From Ignavibacteriota bacterium (GTDB lineage: Bacteria > Bacteroidota > Ignavibacteria > UBA10030 > UBA6906), in the NCBI GenBank assembly GCA_963702445.1, contig CAVPCZ010000012.1:193199-257198 (forward strand): a stretch of DNA of 64,000 nucleotides. Reading direction: 5' to 3'. The number at the start of each line of letters is the position of its first letter. Positions within the stretch are counted from its first letter, which is position 1. Of this stretch, positions 17,698 to 31,853 are shown one piece after another. A model generated the notes under the pieces. It saw only the letters and a list, made by a program, of their open reading frames with translations, had not been told where the DNA came from and did not search any database. The translations under genes and the position numbers were made by a program.

Positions 17698-19026
17698 TTA
17701 CCGGGTGCTGTCGAGTGAATGTTGAAGATCGGTGATGATGTCCTCCGGCTTCTCCAGTCCGATGGCAAGCCGCACACCGCCGGGATCCATGCCGTTGGCG
17801 ACCTGTTCTTCGGCGGGAATTGCCGAGTGGGTCATTGACCCGGGATGTTCAATCAGGGTGCGGATATTGCCGAGGCTCACCGCGAGGGTCACGCAATACG
17901 CTTCCTGCGCGATGTGATTGATGAAGCGTTCGGCCCGTTTGAGTGCATCCGGCGGGTTGGCGCCCTTCATCACAAAATAGATCATCGAACCGGGCGCAAA
18001 GTTGCCGTCGAAGTCCCGCATCTGCCGCCGGGCAAGTTCGGCCTGGGGGAACGACGGAAGACCCGGGTAGCAGACGGATTCGATTTCCGGACGCTGCTGC
18101 AGAAATTCCGCGACCACCTGTGCGGTCACCTGCATCTGGCGCATGCGGGTAGCAAGCGAGGGAAGACCCACCACGAGGACGGGCCATGCGCTCTTTGCCG
18201 ACAGCACGCCGCCAAAGTCCTTCCGGTACAGCATCAGCTGATCGTAGCTCCACCGCGGGCCGATCACCACCCCGCCGATATCCGTTCCGAAGCCGCCGAT
18301 GGCTTTGGTGAGTGAATGCACCACAAAGTCGATGCCCAGAGAAATCGGCCGCTGGCAGAAGGGCGTCGCGAAGGTGCTGTCGACCACCGTGTAGATGCGG
18401 TCTTCGGGAGCGCGCCCGGCATTCGCCTGTAGGGCGATATCCGCAATCCGCTTCAGATCGGTCAGGCCCATGGTGGGATTGACCGGCGATTCCATATAGA
18501 GAACGCGCGTGTTGCGGGTGATGGCTTTTGCCACCTCATCCGGCTTGAGAAAGTCGACGAACTTCACGCCGATTTTGAGGCGTGGATACCAGTTCATCAG
18601 CAGCGAATAGGTGCAACCGTACAGCGTGCGGTGCGCCACGATTTCACTTCCGGTCCCGGTAAGGGTTCCCAGTACACCGGAGATGGCGGCCATACCGCTG
18701 GCAAACGCCACGGCAATATCGCCCCCCTCGGCGTACGCCAGGTTCTCCTCGAGCATGTCCTTGTTCGGTTCCCCCAGACGGTCATAGATATAGATGGGGG
18801 CCTTCGTCTTGACATTCACCTCGTCGCTGCGATGCGCGAACTCCGTGAAACCCTGTGCCCCCCGCTGGGCGCTGTCAAGCCGGAATGTTGCCGAGGCGGA
18901 AATCGGCGGCAAGAGATGATGACTGTAATCCCAGAGAGGGTCGTCCATCCGGCCGTAGATCAGGTGGGCTTCCACCGAATGCCGGTGTGCTTCCTTCTTG
19001 GGCGGTGTGGTGTGTTCTGGCTTCAT
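17698..19026 (-). CDS. Cys/Met-metabolism PLP-dependent enzyme (methionine gamma-lyase, cystathionine or O-acylhomoserine sulfhydrylase family)
   Basis: Family pattern YxRxxNP-like segments and the PLP-lysine motif HSLTKAIGGFGTDIGG. Substrate not assignable from the sequence. Confidence 0.78.
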   Translation of the reverse strand: MKPEHTTPPKKEAHRHSVEAHLIYGRMDDPLWDYSHHLLPPISASATFRLDSAQRGAQGFTEFAHRSDEVNVKTKAPIYIYDRLGEPNKDMLEENLAYAEGGDIAVAFASGMAAISGVLGTLTGTGSEIVAHRTLYGCTYSLLMNWYPRLKIGVKFVDFLKPDEVAKAITRNTRVLYMESPVNPTMGLTDLKRIADIALQANAGRAPEDRIYTVVDSTFATPFCQRPISLGIDFVVHSLTKAIGGFGTDIGGVVIGPRWSYDQLMLYRKDFGGVLSAKSAWPVLVVGLPSLATRMRQMQVTAQVVAEFLQQRPEIESVCYPGLPSFPQAELARRQMRDFDGNFAPGSMIYFVMKGANPPDALKRAERFINHIAQEAYCVTLAVSLGNIRTLIEHPGSMTHSAIPAEEQVANGMDPGGVRLAIGLEKPEDIITDLQHSLDSTR

Positions 19027-20096
19027 CGGATATACTCTCCATGCTCCTGGCGCGGTAAGAGAAATTCATTGATGGGACGACGCGGAGTCGGCACCGGCTC
19101 CGCCAGTGAATACCCGATTCTCAGCAACAGTTGGGGCCAGACATGCAACCCGAGAAGTCTCTTGAGTTCAAGGCGCAGGGCGGGAACCTGCACAGGCATG
19201 TTGAAGTAGCTGTGCTGGATCCCTTCCGCGGTCAGCAGAAGGAGCATCCGTTCCAGGAATTCCCCCGCCGAAAGCCAGTGGGGAACGGTGTCCTCGCCGG
19301 CAATGGTGATCAGGCCGGGAGCATCAACGCAGAGGTTCTTGTCATGTGCGGCACGCAGTTTTCCCGGATCAATCATGCGGGTCGCCCGGGGCACGAACGG
19401 AGCCACGTTTTCATCAATACCCGCCACTTCTCCCCTCATGCCGTCGGGCTGAGCGCTGTCGCCGGACCGGAGCCACTCCGCCACATCGCGGCGGTACGCC
19501 GGATCCGCCAGAAGCAGGCGATCGGCCTGTGCCACCAGGCCGGCAACGGCATCGTTCAATTTTCCGTCGGTGGACGCAGACACGACGGTCTCCCCGGAGA
19601 CGGCCAGATCCTGCACCTGACGGATGACCGACGAGGGGACCCGGGAAACCAGAAAAGGTTTCCTGTTCGTACGCCTCCGGGTCAACTGGGGAAAGAGGGC
19701 GCTCAGTCCGGCACCGCCGTGGACCGATGCTTCGCCCGGCAGGAGGTTGACGAACGCCAGGGGTTCTTCGCTCGATCCGCTCTGGTTGTACACCACCTCG
19801 CATCCGAAGTCGAAAAAGGCGGCGGCAACCCGGAGATTCATGACCGCGGCGCCGATGCTCATCAGGAGCTCACGCCCGGCAGGATCGGCAACCGGCAGAC
19901 GGCGCGTATAATCCCCGTAGAGTTCCACACCCTCAACACTGACCCGGAAATGCCAGGGTTGTGTGTTGAAGGTGGACGGCGCAAGCACGGCGTAACGGAG
20001 CAGAAACAGAAACTGCTCCTCCACGCCCCCCTCCGCCGGAAACTGTCCCGCTGACGGCAACGTGTACGGTCTGCCCGTGGTAACCACCGGTTTCAC
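19023..20096 (-). CDS. Acg-type tandem nitroreductase-fold protein
   Basis: The 357-aa size, RYAVLAPSTFNTQPWHFRV and a second nitroreductase-like half match the Acg/putative NAD(P)H nitroreductase family. Confidence 0.6.
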   Translation of the reverse strand: MKPVVTTGRPYTLPSAGQFPAEGGVEEQFLFLLRYAVLAPSTFNTQPWHFRVSVEGVELYGDYTRRLPVADPAGRELLMSIGAAVMNLRVAAAFFDFGCEVVYNQSGSSEEPLAFVNLLPGEASVHGGAGLSALFPQLTRRRTNRKPFLVSRVPSSVIRQVQDLAVSGETVVSASTDGKLNDAVAGLVAQADRLLLADPAYRRDVAEWLRSGDSAQPDGMRGEVAGIDENVAPFVPRATRMIDPGKLRAAHDKNLCVDAPGLITIAGEDTVPHWLSAGEFLERMLLLLTAEGIQHSYFNMPVQVPALRLELKRLLGLHVWPQLLLRIGYSLAEPVPTPRRPINEFLLPRQEHGEYIR

Positions 20097-20350
20097 TTCA
20101 GAACCCGGACGAGATCAGGGTTATCCGTGGCTATGGCGTCCACCGGACAGTCTTCGGCCGCTTCACGCATGTACTCCTCTTCTTCCGCTGTTTGCGGCTG
20201 GCGGCTGACAAAGTACCTGTTCGACGATTTCTCAAAATCGAAATTGTCCGGCGCAATGGAGGCGCAGTAGGCGCATCCGTCGCACTCTTCGGTGGTAAAG
20301 AATTTGCCCGAGACGTTTTGCGGCAGCCGTCGTGTCGGTTCGGCGCTCAT
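20093..20350 (-). CDS. Small single-cluster ferredoxin
   Basis: CDGCAYCASIAP ... DCPVDAI pattern. The ATG at 20350 overlaps the haem-lyase stop by ATGA (the ORF-track start at 20365 is also possible). Confidence 0.6.
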   Translation of the reverse strand: MSAEPTRRLPQNVSGKFFTTEECDGCAYCASIAPDNFDFEKSSNRYFVSRQPQTAEEEEYMREAAEDCPVDAIATDNPDLVRVLK

Positions 20351-22581
20351 TGTTTCTCCCTCCATCGTTTCACTATTGCCAGGACAAAGCCCGTCATCAT
20401 CAACACCGTTCCACCCCAGAGGAGGTTGATAAACGGTTTCACACTCGCTTCCACCATCAATATCTCCGGGCTCGGGGTCCCGCCGCCGGCCTGCGTGAGG
20501 CCGAGCACGATGCTCGAGGACGTCGAACCCATGCCCGCGTTCACCCTGAGCAGTCGCACCTCCCCGCCCAGCAGCCGTGAGGGAAGTGCCTCCTGCGCCG
20601 GCGTTCCATCGGCCGCGTAGGTCATCAGCGGGGCCAGCTGTTCCCGTTCATTATCCTTCTGCACGTCGATCACCGCGGCGATGCGCATACCTCCCGCCCC
20701 CATTGCCGCACCCGGGGTCCCGTGGGAACCCATATCGAACCGGTTGAAGGTGATCTGTGCTCCGCCCGCTTCCGACGCGACGCCCTTCACCAGGTTGAGT
20801 TCGACCGTCCGGCCTCCCTCCCTGGGAGGCTCAAGAGACATCGGGGAGATATAGAAATCCCTGAAGGCAAAGGACGAGATGTCCGGATTCCTCATGATCC
20901 CCTGTGAGCCCGCCTCAAACATGACCGGGGACAGCGTGAAGACCTTCCCGTTTCCCTCCGCCCGGACACGGAACACATACTTGTCGTCCGCCGTGACCGA
21001 AAACCCTTCATACGTCAGCGTGTGTCCGAGAGCCGGCACGGGTTGTTCCCGGGGGAGCTGGAACTGCTCCGTCGAACTGTACTTCCCCGTGGAAACAACG
21101 CCGAGCAGAAAGAGTGCGAGACCCATATGGGCCACTTTGCCGCCGTGCAGCAGGATGCCGCCTTTGATGTTGGTGAGCACGATATCCACGTTGACGAACA
21201 GCGCAAACACGGCCGTGAAGACCAGTGCCGCAGTGGAACCCTCGCGCATCCCGGCGACATAGAGAATAAGGGTCACCGCAAACGCCGCGATGAGAGCCCG
21301 GAGGGATTGGCGCGAGGTGAGCCGGACATCCTGTTCTTCCCATTGCGTGTACAGGCTGATGCCGATGAGCAGCGCCATCATGATGACAAGGGGAAGATTG
21401 GTGGCGTCGTAGAATGCGGGTTCGACCCGGGTGGTGGAGAATATCGGCAGGCTGGTCCCGAAAAGGATGACAACCGCGCTGAGCAGGAGGGCAACCGCCC
21501 CGGCGGCAAGCGCAGTTTCGCGCGTGAGCCAGCCGCTTGTTGCACCGTCCGCCGCGAGGGATTTCCATCGGAAGGCCAGCAGGCCGAATCCGGAAAGTGC
21601 AATAAGAGAGAGAAATGCGAGCAGGAGCCAGTACACGGCGGAACCGGGATCGGTGAAGGCATGCACGGAGGCGTCGCCGAGTATGCCGCTGCGGGTCAGA
21701 AACGTGCTATAGATCACCAGGAAGAACGAGACAATGGCGAGTGTCACGTTTGTGCGCGGGTATCTGCCGGTACGGCGTTCCACAAGCATCGTGTGCACCA
21801 GCGCGATGCCTGTGAGCCAGGGAATGAGCGAGGAGTTTTCCACCGGATCCCAGCCCCAGTAACCGCCCCACCCCAGAACACCATACGCCCAGTATGCGCC
21901 GAGCATGATGCCCAGTCCGAGCACAGTCACCGCGAACAGGATCCAGGGCAGACCTTGCTGTGAAAGAAGTGTCCGGCGACCCGTCCAGAGGCCCGCCAGC
22001 GCCTGGCTGAAGGGCGCGGCCATTGCGGCAAATCCCAGAAAGAGGACCGGGGGATGAATCACCATCCAGAAATTCTGCAGGAGAGGATTCAGCCCGCGTC
22101 CGTCGGGGGGGATCTGTCCGGGAGGAATCTGCGGCCACATCTCCCACACCGGGCGGAAGGGGGACTTCGCAACGACAATGAGCAGAAGCATCGACTGGAC
22201 AAACAGAAACACGGTCATCACCCCGGATTCGCTGCCATGCTTCCGCCCGTACGAAGCGAGCAGGAGAGCAATCAGTGCCGAGCAGAGCGCCCAGAAGAGG
22301 AAGCTTCCCTCCTGGCCTGCATAAAAGCTGGACAGGAGGAAGTGCAGCGGCAGCGTGCTGTCGCTGTACCCGTAGACGTAGCCGTTGGTGAAGTCATTTC
22401 GCAAAAGGAGCGCCGTCAACAACGCCGATGCAAGCAGGATGAGAAGTGAACTGAGGTACAGGAGGGCTCGCGGTTGCGAAAGACGACCCCCTTTTGTGGA
22501 GGCAGCGCGAAGGTACCCGAGCGCTGAGAAGAGGGATGCAAAGAGCGCAAGGATGATGAACCAGTGTCCAAGAACAGTCAT
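20347..22581 (-). CDS. CcmF/NrfE-family cytochrome c haem lyase (744 aa, polytopic)
   Basis: WWD domain GAYWAYGVLGWGGYWGWDPVENSSLIPWL matches the CcmF/NrfE signature (WAYxELGWGGxWxWDPVEN). Many TM segments and a CcmF-like C-terminal domain. Confidence 0.85.
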   Translation of the reverse strand: MTVLGHWFIILALFASLFSALGYLRAASTKGGRLSQPRALLYLSSLLILLASALLTALLLRNDFTNGYVYGYSDSTLPLHFLLSSFYAGQEGSFLFWALCSALIALLLASYGRKHGSESGVMTVFLFVQSMLLLIVVAKSPFRPVWEMWPQIPPGQIPPDGRGLNPLLQNFWMVIHPPVLFLGFAAMAAPFSQALAGLWTGRRTLLSQQGLPWILFAVTVLGLGIMLGAYWAYGVLGWGGYWGWDPVENSSLIPWLTGIALVHTMLVERRTGRYPRTNVTLAIVSFFLVIYSTFLTRSGILGDASVHAFTDPGSAVYWLLLAFLSLIALSGFGLLAFRWKSLAADGATSGWLTRETALAAGAVALLLSAVVILFGTSLPIFSTTRVEPAFYDATNLPLVIMMALLIGISLYTQWEEQDVRLTSRQSLRALIAAFAVTLILYVAGMREGSTAALVFTAVFALFVNVDIVLTNIKGGILLHGGKVAHMGLALFLLGVVSTGKYSSTEQFQLPREQPVPALGHTLTYEGFSVTADDKYVFRVRAEGNGKVFTLSPVMFEAGSQGIMRNPDISSFAFRDFYISPMSLEPPREGGRTVELNLVKGVASEAGGAQITFNRFDMGSHGTPGAAMGAGGMRIAAVIDVQKDNEREQLAPLMTYAADGTPAQEALPSRLLGGEVRLLRVNAGMGSTSSSIVLGLTQAGGGTPSPEILMVEASVKPFINLLWGGTVLMMTGFVLAIVKRWREKQ

Positions 22582-22616: not shown

Positions 22617-22631
22617 TCAACATGCGTGCCA
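22617..22631 (-). promoter_or_regulatory. Sigma-54-type -24/-12 promoter candidate upstream of the haem-lyase gene
   Basis: The minus strand reads TGGCACGCATGTTGA. The -24 TGGCACG is perfect with correct N4 spacing, and the -12 is TTGA instead of TTGC. A GGAG sits 7 nt before the ATG at 22581. Confidence 0.5.
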
Positions 22632-22710
22632 TGGAAATCCCCTTGAAAACCACGAAAATCACGTTCTGGAAGCCGTTTTAAGGGTTTCCTATCGTGTAAG
22701 AACCAGGGTG

Positions 22711-22728
22711 TTTCCAATACCTGGGAAT
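22711..22728. promoter_or_regulatory. Inverted repeat TTTCC-N8-GGAAT, candidate enhancer (UAS) for the sigma-54 activator
   Basis: tttcc aatacctg ggaat, centred ~90 bp upstream of the -24 GG at 22629-22630. The same half-sites, spacing and distance occur at 35233-35250. Confidence 0.45.
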
Positions 22729-22743
22729 TGGTTTGCAGGAGTG

Positions 22744-22780
22744 CAAAAAAAGCTCCCGGCCCTTTTAGGGGGGGCCGGGA
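22744..22780 (-). terminator. Rho-independent terminator ending the cytochrome operon
   Basis: On the minus strand, CCCGGCCC-cccctaaaa-GGGCCGGG is followed by AGCTTTTTTTG. It lies 63 nt downstream of the lipoprotein cytochrome stop at 22843. Confidence 0.65.
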
Positions 22781-22842: not shown

Positions 22843-24246
22843 CTAGAAGCTCCGCTCGGTATTGAAGGCGTTTACTTTGCCGTTGATGTGTTTGGTCTTG
22901 TCGATGATATTGCCGGAGCCGTTGACGACTCCGGGGTGACAGTTGACGCAGCTGGTGAGCGTCGCGGATGTATGGCCGGCCGGAGGCAGGCCGTGACAGC
23001 TTCCGCATGCGCCGTCGGTGCTTCCGCCGTTCCAGGATGGTGCGAAGTTCGTCCCCGCCATCACGCTATCCGTGAAGGCGAACGAGAAGGAAGATGTGGC
23101 GCGCGAAAGACGCCAGGCCCCATGGCAGTATGTATTGCTGCACTTGAATGTTGTGGTGCCGTAGGCCGGAACCGGCAGGTAGTTCCCGCCGGTTCCGGTG
23201 GCAAGACGCGCCAGCGTATCCCGGAACACGACTTCGGCCGGCAATTGTGTGTCAACGTGCCCGGGGGGGAACGTCTGGGCGGGCACCAGATGGCATTCGG
23301 CACATTTCACGGATTTGCCCAGGTTTCCGGAGACAAGATGCTTCTGATGCGCCCCGATGGCGTGAACGACGGGCGGATTGTCCTGTGAATCCCCCAGGAC
23401 AGTCTTGGGCGGTGCGGCGGAGAGAGCATCGCCCGAGGCGGCGCGGAACTGACCGTGACACGTGTTACAGGCTTCAGGGGATTTCGGCGTGCCGCCGGCA
23501 TCGGCATGGCAGGGAACAGTGGAACAGCTCACATTCACCACCGGACCGCCGGTATACGATGCGCCGTGACAGGTTTTGCATTGCGCCAGGGGATACCCCT
23601 TACTCAGCAGATAGCCGGGATGTCCTGACGATGCCTGGAAGACGGTGTGCGGATAGGAAGCATGGCAGGTGAAGCATGATACACCGCTTGTTCCACCGGT
23701 ATAATTCTCACCATGGCACGCGGCGCATTCCGTCAGCTGCCAGTTCTTTCCTTTCAGGTAGCGGCCGTGAGACGCCGTTGATGCGGGATTGCCCCATCCG
23801 GTGCGGTGGGGATACGAAGCATGGCAGGTGTAGCAGGAAACACCGCTTGTGCCGCCCGAGAAATCCGCGCCGTGACAGGCGGCGCAATCGTCCAGCGTCC
23901 CCATGTCCAGGCGCAGGAACTTCCCATGGAACGTCGTCGCGGCTGTATCCACCCAGCCGGGTTTGTGCGGATAGGACGTGTGACAGCCGTAGCACGAAAC
24001 GCCGCTCGTGCCTCCCGAATAGGCCTTCGAATGGCACGACACGCAGTCCGTGTTCTCGTACTGCGGTCCCGACAGTACGGTGCCGTGAAAGGCCGGAGAG
24101 GCGGGATCATTCCAGCCGGTCTCATGAATGCCCTGCGGGGCCATGGGAGCGGGAAGATCTTGTTTCAGCTCGCTGCAGGCCCCGAGCAGCAATGCCGTCG
24201 TGAGCAGAGCGAACGTCGCCGGAAATCGATGAAAGTGTACGCGCAT
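22843..24246 (-). CDS. Multihaem c-type cytochrome lipoprotein, 13 haem motifs (11 CxxCH + 2 CxxxxCH)
   Basis: Lipobox ALLLGAC at residues 18-24. CxxCH x11, plus CSTVPCH (23506-23526) and CSNTYCH (23122-23142), both verified from the DNA. The C-terminal CxxxxCH...CxxCH pairing resembles the Geobacter-type C4xCH/C2xCH domain. Confidence 0.88.
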   Translation of the reverse strand: MRVHFHRFPATFALLTTALLLGACSELKQDLPAPMAPQGIHETGWNDPASPAFHGTVLSGPQYENTDCVSCHSKAYSGGTSGVSCYGCHTSYPHKPGWVDTAATTFHGKFLRLDMGTLDDCAACHGADFSGGTSGVSCYTCHASYPHRTGWGNPASTASHGRYLKGKNWQLTECAACHGENYTGGTSGVSCFTCHASYPHTVFQASSGHPGYLLSKGYPLAQCKTCHGASYTGGPVVNVSCSTVPCHADAGGTPKSPEACNTCHGQFRAASGDALSAAPPKTVLGDSQDNPPVVHAIGAHQKHLVSGNLGKSVKCAECHLVPAQTFPPGHVDTQLPAEVVFRDTLARLATGTGGNYLPVPAYGTTTFKCSNTYCHGAWRLSRATSSFSFAFTDSVMAGTNFAPSWNGGSTDGACGSCHGLPPAGHTSATLTSCVNCHPGVVNGSGNIIDKTKHINGKVNAFNTERSF

Positions 24247-24262
24247 GGGTCCTCCGCCCTCC

Positions 24263-25465
24263 TTAGCCGTGACAGTAACCGCAGAAGTTTCTTCCCTTCA
24301 CGCCATCGGGTCGGGCATTCAGGTCTGTGTGACAGTTGAAGCATGTGGCCCCGGCACTGGTATGCCAGGGTCCGTGCTCATCCTTCAAAAAAGAACCGGG
24401 ATGTGTGCGCGGGTCGGTTCCCCGTATGCCGTCGGCGTCAACATGACAGGTGACGCATACCGGATCGTTGCCCTGCGTGTCGTGGCAGCTCACACAGCTC
24501 TCGATATCGCGCCGCGCGAGGGTTGCATGGGTACCGCCGCCGCTGCCGACACCGATGGTGGCAAACCCCGCCCCCAGGTGCCAGGCCGGCGTGAACGCCT
24601 GCGAGGTGATGTTGTCGCCCGTCGCATGACATTCCGCGCAGAATTCCTGCTGCGAATGGCAGCCGTAGCAGTCGGCGCTCTTCGACTTCGCATCGATGCC
24701 ATGGGTGAACCGGTAGTTCATGTCGTGTGCGAGCTGCAGGCTCATCTGTTGCGAGCCGTTTCCCGGAAACGTCCGCGGGGTGGGATCGGCCATCAGGGCG
24801 CCCTGGCCGAACTGCGCCAGCGCGGCGGGGGCATGACACTCGGCACAGAACGTCTGTGTGTGGCAGGTGGAGCAGCTGGTTTCCAGTGCTCCGACCCGGG
24901 TCAGCTGCTTGTGCTCCTTTTTGAAGTTTCCCACCAGGTGGTCGGGTGGAACGAGCTGCACAAAGCTGGTATGACACGCCTCACACGCGTTGGTCACCTT
25001 CCGGTCGTTGTGGCAGGTGTTGCAGGTCGCCATCGAAGGCATGTGTTTCGGTGCAGCGTAATCGGCCTCTTCGAGTCCGGCATGGCAGGTCGTGCACTGG
25101 ACGTCTTTCTGTGAAACATGCCGTTCATGGGAGAAGAGCAGCTCGCGCACGGCGGGAGCGGCAGGCTGGATATTGTCGGGATCCAGATGGCAGTAGCTGC
25201 ACTGGTTGCCCAGCTGCTCCTCGTGGCAGGACTGACAGTTGTCGTGGCCCGCACGGAGATTGTCGGACGCCAGTTTGCTTGTGGCTGCCGGGTGGCAGTT
25301 TTCGCACGCCACGCCGGCGTCGGCGATATGCGTCTTGTGGGAGAACTTCAGCTGCTTGTTGTCGGCCCGGTCGGGCCACCCGTTCCGGAGGGCGGGTTTG
25401 TGGGCGACCGCGGTGATCAGCCCGGCGGCAACAATGAGCAGGAAAACCAGATAACGGCGGATCAT
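24263..25465 (-). CDS. Periplasmic 14-haem c-type cytochrome
   Basis: N-terminal signal or anchor (MIRRYLVFLLIVAAGLITAVA) and 14 CxxCH motifs in 400 aa. The start overlaps the beta-barrel stop by ATGA (25462-25465). Confidence 0.9.
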   Translation of the reverse strand: MIRRYLVFLLIVAAGLITAVAHKPALRNGWPDRADNKQLKFSHKTHIADAGVACENCHPAATSKLASDNLRAGHDNCQSCHEEQLGNQCSYCHLDPDNIQPAAPAVRELLFSHERHVSQKDVQCTTCHAGLEEADYAAPKHMPSMATCNTCHNDRKVTNACEACHTSFVQLVPPDHLVGNFKKEHKQLTRVGALETSCSTCHTQTFCAECHAPAALAQFGQGALMADPTPRTFPGNGSQQMSLQLAHDMNYRFTHGIDAKSKSADCYGCHSQQEFCAECHATGDNITSQAFTPAWHLGAGFATIGVGSGGGTHATLARRDIESCVSCHDTQGNDPVCVTCHVDADGIRGTDPRTHPGSFLKDEHGPWHTSAGATCFNCHTDLNARPDGVKGRNFCGYCHG

Positions 25466-26772
25466 TGTGCGCCCTCCCCTTTGAAGATGGACAGCCGTTG
25501 CGCGAACCAGTACATCAGCTTCACCTGCAGGCGCAGATCACGCTGGGAGATTTTGTTCGTCAACCATTGCCCCTGCACGTCGAAGGAGAACGCCTGTGTG
25601 GGGCGGACGATCGCGCCGAGCAGCACCGACAGGGCGTTATCGCGTGAGCTTTCTTTGCTCAGGCGGTAGGATGCATACGAAAGCCCGGCGGTCGGGATCA
25701 CGGTCCGGCCGAAGAACGGGTACGATCCCTGGAGGCTGACCGACTGCAATTCTCCTGCATAGCCGTCGCTGCCGGTATACGCGAGGCTGCCGTAGCCGTT
25801 GTTCACGCCCACGCTCCAGCGCGTGCTCTGCTCGTCGGTATAGCTGACGCTCGCCACCCGGGCGAAGGCGCGGAGGAGGGGGGTAAAACCGTACTCCACG
25901 CCTCCCTCGATTTCATTCACCGCATTGGCGACAAACGCCGAGAATATGGAGTTGTACGAGAGTCGCGGCGCGCGGTGAATGTAGTCCGCGGTCAGGGACA
26001 GCGCCTCGGTCACGTACACCCGCGCACCGCCCTGTGCCCGTGCGGTGCGGGATCCGGCGAAGTCATAATCGTACCTTCCGTACGCGGAGAAGCGGCCGGC
26101 ATATTCGTACCGTGCTTCCGCACTGGCCACTTCCTGGGCCGGCGAATCGTTTGCGATATAGTACGACACCGGGGCAAACGAGGTATCGCGCGCGCGGACG
26201 GTCCAGTACGGGTCTCGCTCCTCGTGCCGGTTCATGTAGCTCAGGCCGATGCGTGCGCCCGGCAGGAGTGTTGTCACCACCTGCCCGCCGAAGTGGTAGT
26301 TGTCGTGCAGGTTTTCCCGGACACCCGTGAAGTCCGGGCTGACCGTTGAGCCGGCAAAACCCGTCACCGTCACCTTCTGCTGGAGAAATCGTGCGCGGGC
26401 GAGAAATCCGTCTATCGTCCCGACTCCTGCGCCTGCATACACCGCCTGCCGTCCGACGTTCAGGTCAAGTACCTTGCCGATGTTGGCCCAGGTCAGGTAG
26501 AGGTTATAGAAGCGCACGCGCCCGACGTCGCCGAAGTCCCCGGCCAGATTGGCCGCCCCCTGGATGAAGGTGTTCACGGAAACGTCGCCCTGCGTCATGG
26601 AAAGCTGGATATTCTGGAAGGCGCGAATGCGCTGGTGGGACACGCCCACCGTATCGAACTGTTCCCAGCCGTAGAAGGATGTCGCCAGACGTCCCGTCAC
26701 CAGCTGCGCGGGCGCGCCGGCGACGCAGACCAGAATCAGCAGGGCGAGGGGGAGAGAGCGTGGTGTCTTCAT
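25462..26772 (-). CDS. Predicted outer-membrane beta-barrel (porin-like) protein of a porin-cytochrome module
   Basis: Signal peptide MKTPRSLPLALLILVCVAGAPAQ from ATG 26772. The remaining ~410 aa show alternating hydrophobic/polar strands rich in Y/G/S/T/R with no Cys and no haem motif, and an aromatic-rich C-terminal region (LMYWF). Barrel call by composition and pattern only. Confidence 0.65.
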   Translation of the reverse strand: MKTPRSLPLALLILVCVAGAPAQLVTGRLATSFYGWEQFDTVGVSHQRIRAFQNIQLSMTQGDVSVNTFIQGAANLAGDFGDVGRVRFYNLYLTWANIGKVLDLNVGRQAVYAGAGVGTIDGFLARARFLQQKVTVTGFAGSTVSPDFTGVRENLHDNYHFGGQVVTTLLPGARIGLSYMNRHEERDPYWTVRARDTSFAPVSYYIANDSPAQEVASAEARYEYAGRFSAYGRYDYDFAGSRTARAQGGARVYVTEALSLTADYIHRAPRLSYNSIFSAFVANAVNEIEGGVEYGFTPLLRAFARVASVSYTDEQSTRWSVGVNNGYGSLAYTGSDGYAGELQSVSLQGSYPFFGRTVIPTAGLSYASYRLSKESSRDNALSVLLGAIVRPTQAFSFDVQGQWLTNKISQRDLRLQVKLMYWFAQRLSIFKGEGAQ

Positions 26773-26816
26773 ACACAGTTCCCTTTTGTTGCCGCCTCTT
26801 CGAAAGGTGTACCCGT

Positions 26817-28316
26817 TCAGAGACCGGAATGGCATTCGACGCAGTTGGTCTCCTGCCATGCATCGCCGATATCCTCGGGGTGCTGGAACGGAAGTCCGGC
26901 CACGGTGAGCGTCTGCGGCACGGGATCCGTCCCCTGATACAGAATCGTATGACAGCTGTTACAGTCCTTGCTGATGCGCTTCCCGTCCGCGCTCACATGT
27001 TTCCCGTCATGGCAGCGAAAACAGCCGAGGTCTGTCATATGGCCGATATGGCTCGGGTAGGCGCTCCAGCGTACATTCATGAGGGGAAAGAAGTTCTTCC
27101 GGTATTGCGCAACAAGCTCCTGTCCGGCCGCGAGAATGCGCGCTCCTTCGGTGGCGGCCACCTGCGGATACTCGCGTTCATAGTAGGCGCGCAGCAGGTG
27201 CGGTATGCTGTCCGCCGCTTCCCCGGCTGTGGTATAGGGACGTTTCAGCAGATCCATTGCTGTTTCACGGACACGCGGCAGCGAGGGGCTTATCGTTCCG
27301 CGCGTCAGGCTCCGGTCCACGATGCGGGCGGGGGGAAGATAAATGTGGGATGGGCGGTTGTGGCAATCCATGCAATCCATGCGCGACCACTCCCCACTCC
27401 GCAGGCCGGCGGTGTCCGCCGGCATTTCTTCGGCGGCATACTCGGTGACCGTACCCGTGCGTTGATCTCTGACGCGAACCAGGGGGATCGACTGACGGAG
27501 GGAATCCACGGCAACGTACGTCACTTCATTGGCGGGGTTCACGTGCCAGTGGATGCCGTTGGCGGGTCCCCGTTCTTCATTCCCGCCGCCGATTTTCATC
27601 AGCAGCGCGAGAGTCCACCGGGTGTTCGCTTCATCGGACTTGAAATAGGTGTTGACGTATTTCTTTTCCCCGGCGAAATGGGACGGCCAGTGGCACTGCT
27701 CACAGGTTTCCCGGGCGGGGCGCAGGTTCTTGATGGGGGTAGGGATCGGCCGGGGGTACACGTTGGCAAGCACGGCGTACACCTGGTACGCCCCGGAAAG
27801 TTTGGACTTGACATACCATCCGGCACCCGAGCCGACGTGGCAGTCAACACACTTGACCCGTGCGTGCGGCGAGTTCAGGTAGGCCGTATACTCCGGTTCC
27901 ATAACATCATGACAGGTTGCGCCGCAGAAGGGCACCGATTCCGTCCACTCAAACGTCCGGTAACTCCCGTACGCCGTGAAGAGCAGGACAACGGCCGTCA
28001 CCCCGGCGAAGAGCGCAAGTGCGGACCGGTGATGCGGCACGCCGAGGTCGATCGTGAGGACCTTTTTACTCGCCGGCCGGCCGGCACGCAGACGCCGCCG
28101 CTCCCGTACCGCTCCCACAGGGATCATCAGCAGCCCCAGCAGCAACGGCACCGGCAGGGCGATATACGAGATGATCCCGATGTACGCCGGCGCGTTTTCC
28201 TGCACCATCTCCACCATGGTGAGAAACAGAATCGTCAGAAGGCACGCGCTCGCCAGGGCTGCCCCCACAATACTTATGGGGTTGTAGAAAATCTCCGGGA
28301 GCTTTCTTTTTTTCAT
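26817..28316 (-). CDS. Membrane-anchored heptahaem c-type cytochrome (NapC/NirT-like region; ImcH-like architecture)
   Basis: Three N-terminal hydrophobic segments are followed by FCGATCHDVM (CxxxCH, 27909-27926, checked in the DNA) and six CxxCH motifs. The 499-aa length and layout match the description of the Geobacter inner-membrane quinol oxidase ImcH. Confidence 0.75.
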   Translation of the reverse strand: MKKRKLPEIFYNPISIVGAALASACLLTILFLTMVEMVQENAPAYIGIISYIALPVPLLLGLLMIPVGAVRERRRLRAGRPASKKVLTIDLGVPHHRSALALFAGVTAVVLLFTAYGSYRTFEWTESVPFCGATCHDVMEPEYTAYLNSPHARVKCVDCHVGSGAGWYVKSKLSGAYQVYAVLANVYPRPIPTPIKNLRPARETCEQCHWPSHFAGEKKYVNTYFKSDEANTRWTLALLMKIGGGNEERGPANGIHWHVNPANEVTYVAVDSLRQSIPLVRVRDQRTGTVTEYAAEEMPADTAGLRSGEWSRMDCMDCHNRPSHIYLPPARIVDRSLTRGTISPSLPRVRETAMDLLKRPYTTAGEAADSIPHLLRAYYEREYPQVAATEGARILAAGQELVAQYRKNFFPLMNVRWSAYPSHIGHMTDLGCFRCHDGKHVSADGKRISKDCNSCHTILYQGTDPVPQTLTVAGLPFQHPEDIGDAWQETNCVECHSGL

Positions 28317-28443
28317 CGTATGGAAAGGTGGATGCGGGGCATCGGGCAGGAGACGGGACCGGCCGGTTCGGCGCGGTCCCGCGTACCCGTCGTCTGTTTC
28401 GGTTTACTTCTTGGGAAGCTTGTGCGCGATTTTCGCCCACCAC

Positions 28444-28944
28444 TCATCGTACTTGAAACCCTTTGAACGTCGGGCTTCCGGCGTTGTGGCAGGTTTCGCA
28501 CGTCTTCTTTGCCGCATCACCTGTCACGAGACCGGCCTCGACGGCCTTCGCCTTGTTTTCGGCCTTCGTATGCAGCGTCTTGAAGCCGGATGCCGCACCG
28601 TGGCACGCTTCGCAGGTGACACCTTCCTTCATGTCGAAGGTCTTCTCTACATTGGCGGCGGTTCCACCACCGGCCACATGGCATTTCAGGCACTCGGGGC
28701 TTTCGGCCGGCGGTTTGGCAAGACCCTTTTCCTTGCCGATCTTCTTGGCCGCTTCGCCCTCCAGGGTCTTGTACGCCCCGGCGTGCGCGGTTTTGGCCCA
28801 GATCGTGAACGCCTCTCCCTTGTCCTTCGCCTTGTGACACATGGCGCAGGTTTTGGTGCCCACGAATTTGTTCTCCGCCACCGCTGTGCCACCGCACAAC
28901 ATCAGCGCAACGGCGAACAGAAGGACCACACAGGCTGTTTTCAT
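28444..28944 (-). CDS. Small periplasmic tetrahaem cytochrome c
   Basis: Signal peptide MKTACVVLLFAVALMLCGGTAVA and four CxxCH motifs (CAMCH, CLKCH, CEACH, CETCH) in 166 aa. GGGAGGAAG precedes the ATG. Confidence 0.88.
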   Translation of the reverse strand: MKTACVVLLFAVALMLCGGTAVAENKFVGTKTCAMCHKAKDKGEAFTIWAKTAHAGAYKTLEGEAAKKIGKEKGLAKPPAESPECLKCHVAGGGTAANVEKTFDMKEGVTCEACHGAASGFKTLHTKAENKAKAVEAGLVTGDAAKKTCETCHNAGSPTFKGFQVR

Positions 28945-29008
28945 TTACGGCTTCCTCCCAGAAATGATGGATGATCAGAAATGTACACGAAAACAATACA
29001 AGATGCCA

Positions 29009-29863
29009 CTACTGGTATGCAAACACCATTGCATAGATGATCCATACGACGATGCTGAAGCCGGTACCCAGGGCCGTCCATGCGAACACCCGGATTGCCC
29101 TGATGACGATCGCCGGATAGGGTTCCGCCAGGCGCGACTCCAGTTCGCCGGATGCCGCCACCGATGCGTATTCGGCGGGTTTGTCCATCTTCAACTCCTC
29201 CACCGGCATCCGTCCGGTGAAGATGACCATATCCATCGGAAATTTTTCCGGGCGCAGGTGGGTGTTGAAAAAGTGGATGGTGAAGATGAACCCGGTGGCC
29301 AGCAATGCCTCGTCACTGTGTATGATCGTCGCCACGTTGATCATCCAGCCCGGGAACAGCTGCGTGAAGAATTCAGGGAACCAGAGAGTGAAGCCGGTCG
29401 ACCCGATCACCACCATCCCCCAGAAGACCGCGAAATAGTCGAACTTCTCCCAGTAGGTCCACCGGCCGAATTCCGGGCGGGGCCCCATACCCAGAAACCA
29501 TTTCACGGATGCAACGAACTGGTGCAGATCGGTTTTCGTCGGCAGCATGGTGTCGGGACCGAACAGGAGACCCTTCCAGCCGCCGATTCCCCGCCGCTTC
29601 CGCCGGAACAGGTCCACGATGTGGACCAGGAACACGCCCACCATGATGGTGGCCGCAAACCGGTGGAAATAACCGGCGGTCTCATACCCGCCGAAGAGGT
29701 GGGAGAGAAACGACGCCCAGCCGGTATAGGAAAACTTCAGAGTCATTCCCGTCAGTGCCAGGCTCAAAAAACTGACGATCATCAGGATATGCAGGATCCG
29801 GTTGAGCCGTGTAAACCGGACGTACTGGCGTTCGTTGCTGTTATCCACTGTGCTGTGCTCCAT
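29009..29863 (-). CDS. Cytochrome b subunit (HydC/FdnI-like, polytopic)
   Basis: YVRFTRLNRILHILMIVSFLSLALTGMTL aligns with YLRMTLGERIQHGTLLVSFITLVLTGFAL in the C-terminal domain of the 31858-33993 protein. It has conserved His in TM helices and 4-5 TM segments. Start uncertain: ATG 29863 or GTG 29929, both overlapping the upstream gene. Confidence 0.78.
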   Translation of the reverse strand: MEHSTVDNSNERQYVRFTRLNRILHILMIVSFLSLALTGMTLKFSYTGWASFLSHLFGGYETAGYFHRFAATIMVGVFLVHIVDLFRRKRRGIGGWKGLLFGPDTMLPTKTDLHQFVASVKWFLGMGPRPEFGRWTYWEKFDYFAVFWGMVVIGSTGFTLWFPEFFTQLFPGWMINVATIIHSDEALLATGFIFTIHFFNTHLRPEKFPMDMVIFTGRMPVEELKMDKPAEYASVAASGELESRLAEPYPAIVIRAIRVFAWTALGTGFSIVVWIIYAMVFAYQ

Positions 29864-31853
29864 CTTCCTGGGTTGTTCCTTCCGCCGGGCCCGGAGGCGG
29901 TGGTGTCTGCTCCGCACGTCTGCGTTCACGCTGCCAGCGCAGGGCCCTGGGCAGCCAGAGCAACGTGTGAATGCCGCTCACCACAAATGTGACGACCAGC
30001 AAACCGGTCATTCCCCAGAAGGTCCAGAAGAGCCAGGGATATTTTGCCGGATCATGATGCGTCGCATGGGTAAGGTAGCCCGCAAAGCGCCGGTTTGCCC
30101 CCGGATGGCACTGCTGGCATGTAGCGACAACATTCTCGCGGCTGAGATGTGACCGCGGGTCGGCGATGGGCAGGATGTCATGTGCGCCGTGACAGCTGTA
30201 GCATTGTGCCGTTTTGGTGTAGCCGAGTTGCGACACTTTTCCGTGATACGTGTCGAAGTACGTCTTCGCAATCGCCTCGTGGCATCGGCCGCACTGGTTC
30301 ATAATCGTGAGCTTGAACCCCTCCTCGTCGGCGCGGCGGATCGTATGGGCGCTGTGGCAGTCGTCGCACACCGGCAGCTGCTTCGTGGTCTTCCCGATCT
30401 GGGAAACGTGCACGCTGCGGGCAAATTGTTCCTCCACCCCGTGATGGCACCGTCCGCACGTGGAGGGGACATTGCGCGGATTGATGCTGGAGAGTGTATC
30501 GGCGCGCGGAAGAACCCTGTGCGCCGTGTGGCAACTCGTGCATGTCGCCGTCACCGTTAATCCACCGCGGGACAGCCCCTTGCCGTGGGTGCTTTCACGG
30601 TAATGCTCGACAATCTGATGTTGATCGCCTGTGTACCGCACGGCCGCTTTCTGGCCTTCACGATGGCAACGCGCACAGAGGGCCGGAATATTGGTGGGAA
30701 ACGTGGAGGAAGCGGGCTGGGTCTTGCCGAGAATGCCGTGCGTGCCGTGGCATTCCTTGCATGTCGGCGCATTGGGATCGTTCCGCACGAAGAGCTGTCC
30801 GTGCGTGCTCTGGAGGTATTCCCGGCCGACTTCCGCATGACAGGATGCGCAATCGACACGCTGGGTGATGGTCTGGCAGGGCCGCTCCTTCGCCGCATTC
30901 ACACCGGCATGGCACTGGCTGCAGGAGATCTTTGCGTGCCGTGAGCCCGCCAGATGTCCGGGTGTCACGGCCATGGACCGGCCGTCCCTGGCCGAAACAA
31001 GATCCGCCCTGGCGTGGCACCGCAGGCAATCCCGGTCGGCCATTCCCTGGTCGTAGAATACCTTTCGTACCTTGTGCGGCTGGTGACAATCCACGCATGC
31101 CGGCAGCATATGGGCCTCTTTTTCCCACAGCTCCCCCTTGATCACCTTTCTATGCACACTCTCGATCTGTGCGTGACATTTTGTGCATGTTGCCGCGATG
31201 TTCCTGCGGGCGATGGATGACGCCGGATCCGTGTGCGGAAGAATGGAGTGGGCGGTGTGGCAGGATGCGCAGGTTGCCGACACGATGAGACCTTTTTTCA
31301 GCAGGCCTTCGCCGTGGATGCTCTCGGAGAAATTCTCCAGGATATGATCCTGATGGATCGTCCGCTGCCGGGCGACGGGTGCGCCTTCCTGGTGGCATTT
31401 GCCGCAGAGGAACGGCACCTGCAGGGGCGACACCGGAGAACGCGCATCGGTGACTTTTGCGATGGCGTGGTTTCCGTGGCAATCGGCGCAACGGGGCGCG
31501 AGCGGATCCCCCCGCCCGGCGGCCTTCCCGTGCAGCGAACGGGTGTGCAGTGCGGACTCCGTGCCATGACAATCGGCGCACACCGCAGGTGCAAGGTCTT
31601 CTTCGTGCGGCAATTCCTTCCCCGCAAGATCGGCGTGACAAGCGACGCAGGGAACATCCGCATGGACCGACCCGGCGAATTTCTTCTGGTCCACGAACAT
31701 CGGCACCGTTTTTCCGCGCTTCGTCCCCGTCAGCGCCCTGTCCTCGTGGCAGGCGAGGCAATCGGTGGACTCCTGGGCCCTCGCCCTCCCCGCACAGATC
31801 AGTGCGGCAGCGGCGAGAATCAGGATCCTTGAAAACGCACGGCGGGCGGTCAT
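29841..31853 (-). CDS. 19-haem c-type cytochrome with signal peptide and one C-terminal TM anchor
   Basis: Signal peptide MTARRAFSRILILAAAALICAGRARAQ from ATG 31853, 19 CxxCH motifs, and a C-terminal helix YPWLFWTFWGMTGLLVVTFVVSGIHTLLWL followed by a basic tail. Confidence 0.88.
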   Translation of the reverse strand: MTARRAFSRILILAAAALICAGRARAQESTDCLACHEDRALTGTKRGKTVPMFVDQKKFAGSVHADVPCVACHADLAGKELPHEEDLAPAVCADCHGTESALHTRSLHGKAAGRGDPLAPRCADCHGNHAIAKVTDARSPVSPLQVPFLCGKCHQEGAPVARQRTIHQDHILENFSESIHGEGLLKKGLIVSATCASCHTAHSILPHTDPASSIARRNIAATCTKCHAQIESVHRKVIKGELWEKEAHMLPACVDCHQPHKVRKVFYDQGMADRDCLRCHARADLVSARDGRSMAVTPGHLAGSRHAKISCSQCHAGVNAAKERPCQTITQRVDCASCHAEVGREYLQSTHGQLFVRNDPNAPTCKECHGTHGILGKTQPASSTFPTNIPALCARCHREGQKAAVRYTGDQHQIVEHYRESTHGKGLSRGGLTVTATCTSCHTAHRVLPRADTLSSINPRNVPSTCGRCHHGVEEQFARSVHVSQIGKTTKQLPVCDDCHSAHTIRRADEEGFKLTIMNQCGRCHEAIAKTYFDTYHGKVSQLGYTKTAQCYSCHGAHDILPIADPRSHLSRENVVATCQQCHPGANRRFAGYLTHATHHDPAKYPWLFWTFWGMTGLLVVTFVVSGIHTLLWLPRALRWQRERRRAEQTPPPPGPAEGTTQEDGAQHSG

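What the first reader, a model, noticed from the sequence alone, without database searches (positions are those of the whole stretch)
22617..22728. The same promoter and enhancer geometry recurs in front of the haem-lyase gene, 12.5 kb away
The minus strand reads TGGCACGCATGTTGA (22631-22617): a perfect -24 TGGCACG, correct spacing, and again a -12 of TTGA. The inverted repeat TTTCC-aatacctg-GGAAT (22711-22728) is centred ~90 bp upstream of the -24 GG.

Two sites therefore share three things: identical half-sites (TTTCC/GGAA), an identical 8-nt spacer length, and essentially identical distance (90 versus 91 bp) to a TGGCAC-N5-TTGA element. That is unlikely to be coincidence. It argues that haem-lyase expression is co-regulated with the cytochrome cluster by one activator.

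The element sits between the operon terminator (22744-22780) and the lyase gene, so the lyase is a separate but co-controlled unit.
Basis: seen in the sequence. Interest (0 to 1): 0.6.

Follow-up and report, generated by a model that had tools for sequence, protein, structure and literature searches.

The report
Shared sigma-54 enhancer controls cytochromes and lyase
Two promoters 12.5 kb apart carry the same activator-binding site at the same distance. One drives a respiratory cytochrome cluster and the other a dedicated haem-attachment enzyme. The pairing is conserved across a whole family of uncultured Ignavibacteria-type bacteria, so one two-component regulator very probably switches both on together.

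Summary
On the minus strand, TGGCACGCATGTTGA (22631-22617) lies 50 nt before the CcmF/NrfE-like gene. TTCCCAGGTATTGGAA (22727-22712) is centred 88 bp upstream of it. The second site (35152-35138 and 35249-34) has the same geometry, directly after an NtrC-type activator gene.

- **Specificity in this genome:** in the 5.18 Mb genome only these two promoter-like sites have the repeat upstream.
- **Specificity across relatives:** in 41 related genomes the composite pattern occurs 32 times against 0 for a reversed control, and never more than twice per genome. In the family, 27 of 29 hits map to one of these two positions, and the other two sit at contig ends.
- **Helical phasing:** the spacer sequence drifts, but its length stays at 87-91 or 76-79 bp.
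- **Co-variation:** where the activator's recognition helix changes (SLSSLYRK to SLPTLYRR), the half-site changes from GGAA to AGAA at both promoters.
- **Machinery:** rpoN and a GAFTGA activator are present.
- **The -12 TTGA:** it is typical of the lineage, not a defect.

This is a well-supported two-promoter regulon of a known kind. There is no direct binding or transcript-start evidence.

The parts
22617..22631 (-). Sigma-54-type promoter A, TGGCACGCATGTTGA (-24 TGGCAC, -12 TTGA). The predicted transcript start is near 22605. The ATG of the lyase gene is 50 nt from the T of TGG.
   Evidence: It is conserved at -47 to -51 from the ATG in about 22 orthologous loci. The core TGGCACGCATGTTGA is almost invariant.
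22712..22727 (-). Proximal upstream activator site A, TTCCCAGGTATTGGAA, centred 88 bp upstream of TGG.
   Evidence: 26.9 bits. TTC[CT]CA-N6-GGAA is conserved at 87-90 or 77-78 bp in 18 genera.
22732..22747 (-). Conserved distal block TTTGCACTCCTGCAAA (TTTTCACTCCTGCAAA in most relatives), starting 20 bp upstream of site A. Its role is unknown. It may be a very degenerate second site.
   Evidence: It is conserved at a fixed offset in 12 or more genera. It scores -15 bits with the site matrix, so it is not a recognisable copy.
22745..22780 (-). Intrinsic terminator of the cytochrome operon: 9-bp G+C stem, 9-nt loop, U7.
   Evidence: -22.8 kcal/mol, z = -2.35. A comparable hairpin followed by a T-run is visible by eye in the three closest relatives. 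The simple scan missed it because the loop is 9 nt and the tail starts 3 nt after the stem.
20347..22581 (-). Divergent CcmF/NrfE-family haem lyase paralogue (744 aa), with the WWD motif WGGYWGWDPVEN.
   Evidence: Pfam PF01578 and PF16327. NCBIfam CcmF/NrfE models match but score below their cut-offs. WWD motif found. Orthologues are syntenic with the activator gene.
19023..20365 (-). Ferredoxin gene (20093-20365, overlapping the end of the lyase gene) and Acg-family FMN oxidoreductase gene (19023-20096). These are the probable remainder of the promoter-A unit.
   Evidence: The order lyase-ferredoxin(-Acg) is conserved in 17-22 loci.
35138..35152 (-). Sigma-54-type promoter B, TGGCACAACTCTTGA, 48 nt before the usp ATG (35104). 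The predicted transcript start is near 35126.
   Evidence: It is conserved after the activator gene in 16 family genomes.
35234..35249 (-). Proximal upstream activator site B, TTCCCACAATTCGGAA, centred 89 bp upstream of TGG.
   Evidence: 27.7 bits. It is conserved at 88-91 or 76-79 bp.
35264..35279 (-). Weaker distal copy of the site, TTCGCAGGGTTAGGAA, starting 30 bp upstream of site B. It overlaps the stop codon of the activator gene.
   Evidence: It scores 9.6 bits (about 1.5e-5 per position by chance). TTYGCAG-N5-RGAAT sits at a fixed -30 offset in 15 of 16 genera, even where the encoded C-terminal residues differ.
35267..36631 (-). NtrC-type enhancer-binding protein (REC, AAA+ with GAFTGA, HTH_8), 454 aa from the ATG at 36631.
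   Evidence: Orthologues at 58-96% identity occur in about 30 of 40 relatives.
36624..38048 (-). Soluble PAS-PAS histidine kinase, the presumed partner of the activator. Its stop overlaps the activator's start by 8 nt.
22843..35104 (-). Promoter-B operon, in order:
- Usp
- receiver-like 160-aa protein
- CbcL-like cytochrome c/b fusion
- 19-haem cytochrome
- cytochrome b
- c554-like cytochrome
- NapC/NirT (ImcH-like) cytochrome
- 465-aa protein without a Pfam hit
- two multihaem cytochromes; the last has two CX4CH sites

Best explanation
Both sites are genuine sigma-54 (-24/-12) promoters. Each is served by an upstream activator site, TTC[CT]CA-N6-GGAA, about 8.5 helical turns upstream.

**Proposed mechanism**
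- The NtrC-type response regulator at 35267-36631 is phosphorylated by the adjacent PAS histidine kinase.
- It binds these sites and oligomerises. At promoter B this is helped by a weaker second copy 30 bp further upstream.
- It contacts the sigma-54 holoenzyme by DNA looping across a moderately A/T-rich spacer.
- It uses ATP hydrolysis (GAFTGA loop) to open the promoters.

**Consequence**
- Promoter B drives the usp-to-cytochrome electron-transfer operon.
- Promoter A lies just past that operon's terminator. It drives a dedicated CcmF/NrfE-type haem lyase, a ferredoxin and usually an Acg-family oxidoreductase.
- The maturation enzyme is therefore induced together with the cytochromes.

**Shown here:** sequence, conservation, phasing, genome-wide specificity, co-variation, and presence of rpoN and the activator.

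**Inferred:** actual binding, sigma-54 dependence, transcript starts and the inducing signal. The signal is probably redox-related, by analogy with BccR.
For: 1. **Specificity in this genome.** Only these two of 171 promoter-like sites have the repeat upstream. Matrix scores are 27.7 and 26.9 bits against 20.9 for the next hit.
2. **Specificity across genomes.** The strict composite pattern gives 32 hits and 0 control hits in 41 genomes, with at most 2 per genome. Of the 29 family hits, 27 map by coordinates either directly after the activator gene or directly before the lyase gene. The other 2 lie at contig ends.
3. **Footprint.** The promoter core and the 16-mer are conserved while the spacer sequence is not.
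4. **Phasing.** Distances fall only at 87-91 or 76-79 bp, and none of the 34 sites lies at 80-86. Different genomes have the short class at A and at B, so several independent indels of about 11 bp occurred.
5. **Co-variation.** Activators with the recognition helix ISLSSLYRK go with xxGGAA at both sites. G013 and G016, with ISLPTLYRR, have TGAGAA at both sites.
6. **Machinery.** rpoN is present. The activator has REC, Walker A, GAFTGA and HTH_8.
7. **Gene linkage.** The lyase orthologue lies 5-26 kb downstream of the activator on the same contig in 10 or more genera. In G025 and G033 it lies between two activator paralogues. G010, G023, G026, G032 and G040 lack both orthologues.
8. **Negative control.** Of 46 housekeeping-type CcmF paralogues, 2 have a promoter-like match and none has the site. 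Of 34 closer orthologues, 16 have the promoter and 14 have the site.
9. **Promoter-to-gene geometry.** The promoter-to-ATG distance is 50 nt at A and 48 nt at B. A GGAG lies 5 nt before the lyase ATG.
Against: - There is no experimental evidence of binding, sigma-54 dependence or transcript starts.
- The -12 element is TTGA, not the canonical TTGC.
- Metatranscriptome contigs of a related strain (run X17) run 48 nt or more upstream of the -24 element of promoter A. Another contig runs through the terminator to 22720. RNA, or residual DNA, therefore spans the promoter, and the start cannot be resolved.
- The co-variation rests on few independent lineages.
- Some family genomes have TTCTCA rather than TTCCCA at site A while keeping the SLSSLYRK helix.
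- All genomes are metagenome-assembled.
Confidence: 0.8

Rival explanations
1. The lyase is mainly transcribed by read-through from the cytochrome operon. Promoter A then only supplements it, so the lyase is not a separate unit.
For: RNA-derived contigs in run X17 extend 48 nt or more upstream of the -24 element and through the terminator to 22720, leaving a gap of only about 37 nt. The genes are co-directional and 260 nt apart.
Against: A strong terminator hairpin with U7 lies between the genes. The promoter and site are conserved in about 18 genera, which would not be maintained if they were unused. In G016 the lyase lies 70 kb from the activator gene yet keeps the promoter. Contigs cannot distinguish RNA from residual DNA.
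Confidence: 0.1
2. The 16-mer is bound by a regulator other than the adjacent NtrC-type protein. This could be another of the genome's many enhancer-binding proteins, or a repressor or architectural protein.
For: The genome encodes many paralogous sigma-54 activators at 40-46% identity. No binding data exist. The conserved distal block at site A is not a recognisable copy of the motif.
Against: Site B sits 18 nt after this activator's stop codon in 16 genera. The half-site co-varies with this protein's recognition helix at both promoters. The orthologue's presence and absence track the lyase orthologue. Helical phasing relative to the -24 element is typical of an activator, not a repressor.
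Confidence: 0.07
3. The match is a chance resemblance or a neutral leftover of a duplicated intergenic region, with no regulatory role.
For: Within the window, each element alone is not significant. About 1.7 co-occurrences within 250 bp are expected genome-wide from the element densities (my calculation).
Against: There are 32 composite hits against 0 in the control across 41 genomes. Position, distance and motif are conserved at protein identities down to about 50% while the spacer diverges. The spacers of A and B are not alike, so this is not a recent duplication.
Confidence: 0.01

Closest known systems
BccR (GSU0598) and the sigma-54-dependent cbcBA operon of Geobacter sulfurreducens (Joshi, Chan & Bond, bioRxiv 10.1101/2021.04.15.440034)
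   Same: - A response-regulator-type sigma-54 activator (REC, AAA+, HTH) sits next to an operon.
- That operon starts with small proteins, including a receiver-like one, and encodes b- and c-type respiratory cytochromes behind a -24/-12 promoter.
- The paper notes BccR-like regulators next to cbcBA homologues in Bacteroidetes-related genera.
   Different: - bccR is divergently transcribed, whereas here kinase, activator and operon are co-directional.
- In that paper, searches for 'binding site', 'upstream activat', 'enhancer', 'heme lyase' and 'CcmF' found no activator site, no second target promoter and no haem lyase target.
- Orthology of the two activators was not tested here.
NtrC at glnAp2 and related group I enhancer-binding proteins (established knowledge)
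   Same: - Dyad-symmetric sites lie about 80-140 bp upstream of a -24/-12 promoter.
- There is more than one site per promoter.
- Activation depends on the face of the helix, and the spacer favours looping.
- The activator has a phosphorylated receiver domain and a GAFTGA ATPase.
   Different: - The site sequence differs: TTCCCA-N6-GGAA against TGCACC-N5-GGTGCA.
- The -12 element is TTGA.
- The targets are respiratory cytochromes and a haem lyase, not nitrogen assimilation genes.
NrfE/NrfF/NrfG of E. coli and the dedicated CcsBA-type lyases NrfI and CcsA1 of Wolinella succinogenes (established knowledge)
   Same: A second, specialised haem lyase paralogue is encoded with the cytochrome cluster whose unusual haem-binding motifs it serves. 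In the known cases these motifs are CXXCK or CX15CH. Here the candidates are CX4CH and CX3CH.
   Different: - In E. coli the nrf lyase genes lie within the nrf operon. Here the lyase has its own sigma-54 promoter and enhancer.
- The protein scores below the NrfE and CcmF model cut-offs.
- No nrfF/nrfG-like genes are adjacent; a ferredoxin follows instead.
- Substrate specificity is untested.
Ignavibacterium album porin-cytochrome (Pcc) cluster
   Same: The operon behind promoter B is the same kind of Ignavibacteria-type conduit: outer-membrane barrel, periplasmic cytochrome and lipoprotein cytochrome.
   Different: I did not read that paper. A full-text search found no paper that combines Ignavibacteria with sigma-54.

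Membership tests
Sigma-54 (-24/-12) promoter | GG at -24/-25 within TGGCAC, exactly 10 nt before the -12 dinucleotide | tested here: met
   TGGCAC-N5-TTGA at both sites. The spacing is invariant in more than 30 orthologous promoters.
Sigma-54 (-24/-12) promoter | GC at -13/-12 (TTGCW) | tested here: inconclusive
   The -12 base is A, not C. The A is conserved at both promoters throughout the family, while more distant families have TTGC at the same promoters.

In this genome TGGCAC-N5-TTGA is as enriched at the N5 spacing as TTGC: 17 each, against about 6-8 at other spacings. In 25 family genomes TTGA gives 304 hits against 82 control hits, and TTGC gives 244 against 235 (summed by hand, and the controls are imperfect).
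Sigma-54 (-24/-12) promoter | The genome encodes sigma-54 | tested here: met
   PF04552 match at C20:131352-131825, 188.7 bits, above the cut-off.
Sigma-54 (-24/-12) promoter | Transcript start about 12 nt downstream of the -12 element; activator- and rpoN-dependent | tested here: inconclusive
   Only metatranscriptome contigs were available. They cover the promoter region and do not resolve a start.
Bacterial enhancer (upstream activator site) of an NtrC-type activator | Dyad-symmetric site about 70-150 bp upstream of the -24 element | tested here: met
   TTCCCA-N6-GGAA centred 88 and 89 bp upstream.
Bacterial enhancer (upstream activator site) of an NtrC-type activator | Face-of-helix dependence | tested here: met
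   Distances lie only at 87-91 or 76-79 bp in 34 family sites. Distant relatives have 67, 98, 107 and 127 bp. This is comparative evidence, not functional evidence.
Bacterial enhancer (upstream activator site) of an NtrC-type activator | Two or more sites per promoter to nucleate the oligomer | tested here: inconclusive
   Promoter B has a second copy at -30 bp that scores 9.6 bits and is conserved. Promoter A has a conserved block at -20 bp that is not a recognisable copy.
Bacterial enhancer (upstream activator site) of an NtrC-type activator | Specific binding by the activator | not testable with these tools
   Indirect support only: adjacency and co-variation between helix and half-site.
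Group I bacterial enhancer-binding protein (NtrC/AtoC/ZraR type) | REC, AAA+ sigma-54 interaction domain with GAFTGA and Walker A/B, and a C-terminal HTH_8 | tested here: met
   PF00072, PF00158, PF25601 and PF02954. GAFTGA at residue 218, GKSGTGK at 171, DEV at 242. It scores below the equivalog cut-offs for AtoC, NtrC and ZraR, so it is none of those named regulators.
CcmF/NrfE haem lyase family | Cytochrome c assembly (WWD) domain plus the CcmF C-terminal domain | tested here: met
   PF01578 at 2.7e-30 and PF16327 at 7.3e-22. WGGYWGWDPVEN at residue 238.
CcmF/NrfE haem lyase family | Score above the NCBIfam family cut-off (TIGR00353 or TIGR03145) | tested here: not met
   260 bits against a cut-off of 569, and 266 against 927. 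It is a divergent paralogue. A second CcmF-like gene and a weak CcmE match lie at C16:318-319.5 kb, and there is no ResB.
BccR-cbcBA type regulation (Geobacter) | Response-regulator activator next to a bc-cytochrome operon with a sigma-54 promoter | tested here: met
BccR-cbcBA type regulation (Geobacter) | Orthology to BccR, divergent gene order, and induction at low redox potential | not tested
   The gene order here is co-directional. Orthology and induction could not be examined.

The most novel reading that the evidence does not exclude
A divergent System-I-type haem lyase paralogue with a ferredoxin partner is the dedicated maturation factor for the CX4CH and CX3CH haem sites of this extracellular-electron-transfer conduit. 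A PAS kinase and NtrC-type activator induce it in lock-step with its substrates. They do so through a lineage-specific sigma-54 promoter grammar in which -12 TTGA, not TTGC, is the preferred form.
Probability: 0.3. Interest if true: 0.6.

Novelty: new member of a known kind. Interest (0 to 1): 0.45.

Why it matters
- **A concrete regulon.** It gives a testable, two-promoter regulon for the switch that controls an extracellular-electron-transfer pathway in an uncultured but widespread sediment and freshwater lineage.
- **Biogenesis tied to respiration.** It links cytochrome maturation (a dedicated CcmF/NrfE paralogue plus ferredoxin) to the same switch. This points to which cytochromes need the special lyase.
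- **A defined site for experiments.** The 16-mer, its phasing rule and the helix/half-site co-variation allow direct heterologous tests.
- **A comparison point for Geobacter.** In the BccR paper I searched, I found no activator site described.
- **Annotation.** The lineage-wide use of TTGA at -12 matters for anyone predicting sigma-54 promoters outside the Proteobacteria.

Tried and rejected
- **Transcript start mapping.** Only three metatranscriptome runs hold related sequence, and only as contigs. They span the promoter and cannot give a start or prove separate units.
- **A third regulon member at C18:59411-59456.** Two tandem TTCCCA-N6-GGAA sites and TGGCATGATTTGTGA lie before a kinase-activator pair. 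They are absent from all 24 relatives searched, including the same genus, so I did not count them.
- **A third sigma-54-like element at 34136-34120**, noted earlier in this scan. It is not conserved even in the same-genus genome and is probably chance.
- **Site A distal block as a second copy of the motif.** The matrix rejects it at -15 bits.
- **My ORF-based 'intergenic' filter.** It was too strict for this 59% G+C genome and excluded even the two real sites. I used spacing and reversed-pattern controls instead.
- **The simple terminator scan.** It missed the real terminator because of its loop and tail limits. Folding recovered it.
- **A cultured relative for experiments.** All 80 best loci are metagenome-assembled genomes.
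- **Literature.** No paper in the searched library links Ignavibacteria, sigma-54 and cytochromes. A 2025 cross-phylum sigma-54 regulon survey mentions neither TTGA nor cytochromes.

Full report
**1. The observation**

On the minus strand, TGGCACGCATGTTGA lies at 22631-22617, 50 nt before the ATG of a 744-aa gene (22581). A GGAG lies 5 nt before that ATG.

The repeat at 22711-22728, read on the transcribed strand, is TTCCCAGGTATTGGAAAC. The site 12.5 kb away reads TTCCCACAATTCGGAAAC (35249-35232), followed by TGGCACAACTCTTGA (35152-35138). That promoter is 48 nt before the ATG of a usp gene.

The repeat centre lies 88 and 89 bp from the T of TGG.

**2. Gene context**

All genes are on the minus strand, in this order:
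- a soluble PAS-PAS histidine kinase (36624-38048)
- an NtrC-type activator with REC, AAA+ (GAFTGA) and HTH_8 domains (35267-36631)
- site B
- Usp, then a receiver-like 160-aa protein
- a 13-haem cytochrome c/b fusion, a 19-haem cytochrome and a cytochrome b
- a c554-like cytochrome, then a NapC/NirT-like cytochrome with one CX3CH site
- a 465-aa protein with no Pfam hit
- a 14-haem cytochrome
- a cytochrome with 11 CXXCH and two CX4CH sites (22843-24246)
- a strong terminator
- site A
- the CcmF/NrfE-like gene, an overlapping ferredoxin gene and an Acg-family FMN oxidoreductase gene

Earlier notes of this scan describe the cluster as an Ignavibacteria-type quinol-to-surface electron conduit. 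I did not re-test that description.

**3. More than chance?**

Inside the window, each element alone is unremarkable. The combination is not:
- In the whole 5.18 Mb genome there are 171 sites matching TGG[CT]A-N6-TTG[CA]. Only these two have TTCC-N8-GGAA within 250 bp upstream, at 88 and 89 bp.
- A weight matrix from 34 orthologous sites scores them 27.7 and 26.9 bits. The next hit scores 20.9.
- The strict composite TTCCCA-N6-GGAA-N60-90-TGGCAY-N5-TTGM occurs 32 times in 41 related genomes. The reversed control occurs 0 times, and no genome has more than two hits.
- Comparing coordinates, 27 of the 29 family hits lie either directly after the activator gene or directly before the lyase gene. 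The other two are at contig ends and carry the site-B type sequence.

That test fails.

**4. Footprint and phasing**

Upstream of the lyase orthologues (protein identity down to about 50%), the promoter sits at -47 to -51 from the ATG. Its core TGGCACGCATGTTGA is almost invariant. The 16-mer TTC[CT]CA-N6-GGAA is kept, while the 70-80 nt between them is not conserved.

The same holds downstream of the activator orthologues.

Among 34 family sites, the centre-to-TGG distance is 87-91 bp in 26 and 76-79 bp in 8. None falls at 80-86. More distant relatives have 67, 98, 107 and 127 bp.

The short class occurs in different genomes at A (G002, G004, G005) and at B (G006, G007, G011, G014, G024). Indels of about 11 bp were therefore accepted repeatedly, and other lengths were not. 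This is the signature of an activator that must sit on one face of the helix.

The spacer has a modest A/T-rich patch: 0.54-0.59 A+T against about 0.41 overall. This is compatible with bending, but no bending protein was examined.

**5. Who binds?**

- Site B begins 18 nt after the activator's stop codon in 16 genera. A weaker copy (TTCGCAGGGTTAGGAA, 9.6 bits) overlaps that stop codon at a fixed 30-bp offset. The offset holds even where the encoded C-terminal residues differ.
- Activators of the main group have the recognition helix ISLSSLYRK and xxGGAA right half-sites at both promoters.
- G013 and G016 have ISLPTLYRR and TGAGAA at both promoters. G031, with SLSSLYRK, has TGGGAA at both.
- The lyase orthologue follows the activator on the same contig in 10 or more genera. 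In G025 and G033 it lies between two activator paralogues. G010, G023, G026, G032 and G040 lack both orthologues.
- rpoN is present.

Together this makes the adjacent activator the likely binder. It remains an inference.

**6. The -12 TTGA**

The A at -12 is conserved at both promoters throughout the family. Other families of the order have TTGC at the same promoters.

In this genome, TGGCAC-N5-TTGA and TGGCAC-N5-TTGC are equally enriched at the N5 spacing: 17 each, against about 6-8 at other spacings.

Summed by hand over 25 family genomes, TTGA gives 304 hits against 82 for the reversed control. TTGC gives 244 against 235. The controls differ in composition, so this is indicative only.

TTGA therefore looks like a normal -12 form in this lineage, not a weakness of these two sites.

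**7. The lyase and its unit**

The protein has the cytochrome c assembly and CcmF_C domains and the WWD motif. It scores well below the NrfE and CcmF model cut-offs.

The genome also has a second CcmF-like gene next to a weak CcmE match, and no ResB. The window gene is therefore an extra, divergent System-I-type paralogue.

Lyase-ferredoxin adjacency is conserved in about 20 loci, usually followed by the Acg-family gene.

Of 46 housekeeping-type paralogues (under 44% identity) in public genomes, 2 have a promoter-like match and none has the 16-mer. Of 34 closer orthologues, 16 have the promoter and 14 have the 16-mer.

The CX4CH and CX3CH sites in the operon's cytochromes are obvious candidate substrates. 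This is untested.

**8. RNA evidence**

Three metatranscriptome runs hold related sequence, but only as contigs.

In run X17, a contig of a related strain covers the lyase 5' end and continues 48 nt past the -24 element. Another contig runs from the last cytochrome through the terminator to 22720.

This neither supports nor excludes a start near 22605. It leaves read-through possible.

**9. Comparison and novelty**

The mechanism is the classical NtrC-type enhancer plus sigma-54 promoter.

The nearest functional precedent is BccR, which activates the sigma-54-dependent cbcBA operon in Geobacter sulfurreducens. In that paper, searches for 'binding site', 'upstream activat', 'enhancer', 'heme lyase' and 'CcmF' found no activator site and no lyase target.

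Dedicated lyase paralogues encoded with their substrates are known (NrfEFG, NrfI, CcsA1; from my own knowledge). I know of none with its own copy of the cluster's enhancer.

I found no paper on sigma-54 control in Ignavibacteria.

This is a new, well-defined member of a known kind of system. Two points deserve attention: the lineage-typical TTGA and the co-induced lyase-ferredoxin unit.

**10. Caveats**

- All genomes are metagenome-assembled, and no cultured relative was found.
- Related genomes are not independent samples.
- The co-variation rests on few lineages.
- Binding, sigma-54 dependence, transcript starts and the signal are all inferred.

Noticed in passing
Whole genome and 40 relatives; for example window 22617-22620 and 35138-35141: TTGA seems to be a regular -12 element of sigma-54 promoters in this family.
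- TGGCAC-N5-TTGA is enriched about 3-fold over other spacings in this genome.
- In 25 family genomes it gives 304 hits against 82 for the reversed control, whereas TTGC gives 244 against 235.
- Promoter predictors trained on TTGCW would miss about half the sites.
   Followed up: partly
window 35264-35279 (-): A weaker second copy of the activator site (TTCGCAGGGTTAGGAA) overlaps the stop codon of the activator gene. Its DNA is conserved at a fixed 30-bp offset even where the C-terminal amino acids differ, so the gene's end doubles as a regulatory site.
   Followed up: yes
window 22732-22747 (-): The block TTT(T/G)CACTCCTGCAAA, 20 bp upstream of site A, is conserved in 12 or more genera. It is not a recognisable copy of the 16-mer. 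Its function is unknown: a second factor, or a very degenerate site.
   Followed up: partly
window 20093-20365 and 19023-20096 (-): A ferredoxin gene overlaps the end of the lyase gene and is kept next to it in about 20 loci, usually followed by an Acg-family FMN oxidoreductase gene. A cytoplasmic ferredoxin partnered with a CcmF-type lyase is unusual and may supply reductant.
   Followed up: partly
window 22843-24246 and 26817-28316 (-): The last cytochrome of the operon has two CX4CH sites (residues 241 and 369) besides 11 CXXCH. The NapC/NirT-like cytochrome has one CX3CH (residue 131). These are candidate substrates for the extra lyase.
   Followed up: no
genome contig C18:59411-59510: Two tandem TTCCCA-N6-GGAA sites 30 bp apart, and a weak -24/-12-like TGGCATGATTTGTGA, precede another kinase-activator gene pair. 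They are absent from all 24 relatives searched, so they are probably not part of the regulon.
   Followed up: yes
window 34120-34136 (-): The sigma-54-like CGGCACCAATATCGCA before the CbcL-like gene, noted earlier in this scan, is not conserved even in the same-genus genome. It is likely chance.
   Followed up: yes
loci of G025 and G033 (contigs C11 and C18): In two genomes of another family of the order, the lyase orthologue lies directly between two paralogous copies of the activator gene. This is a tighter version of the same linkage.
   Followed up: no
genome contig C16:318348-319532: A second CcmF-like gene lies next to a weak CcmE match, and ResB is absent. The organism probably uses System I for general cytochrome c maturation, and the window gene is an extra paralogue.
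   Followed up: partly
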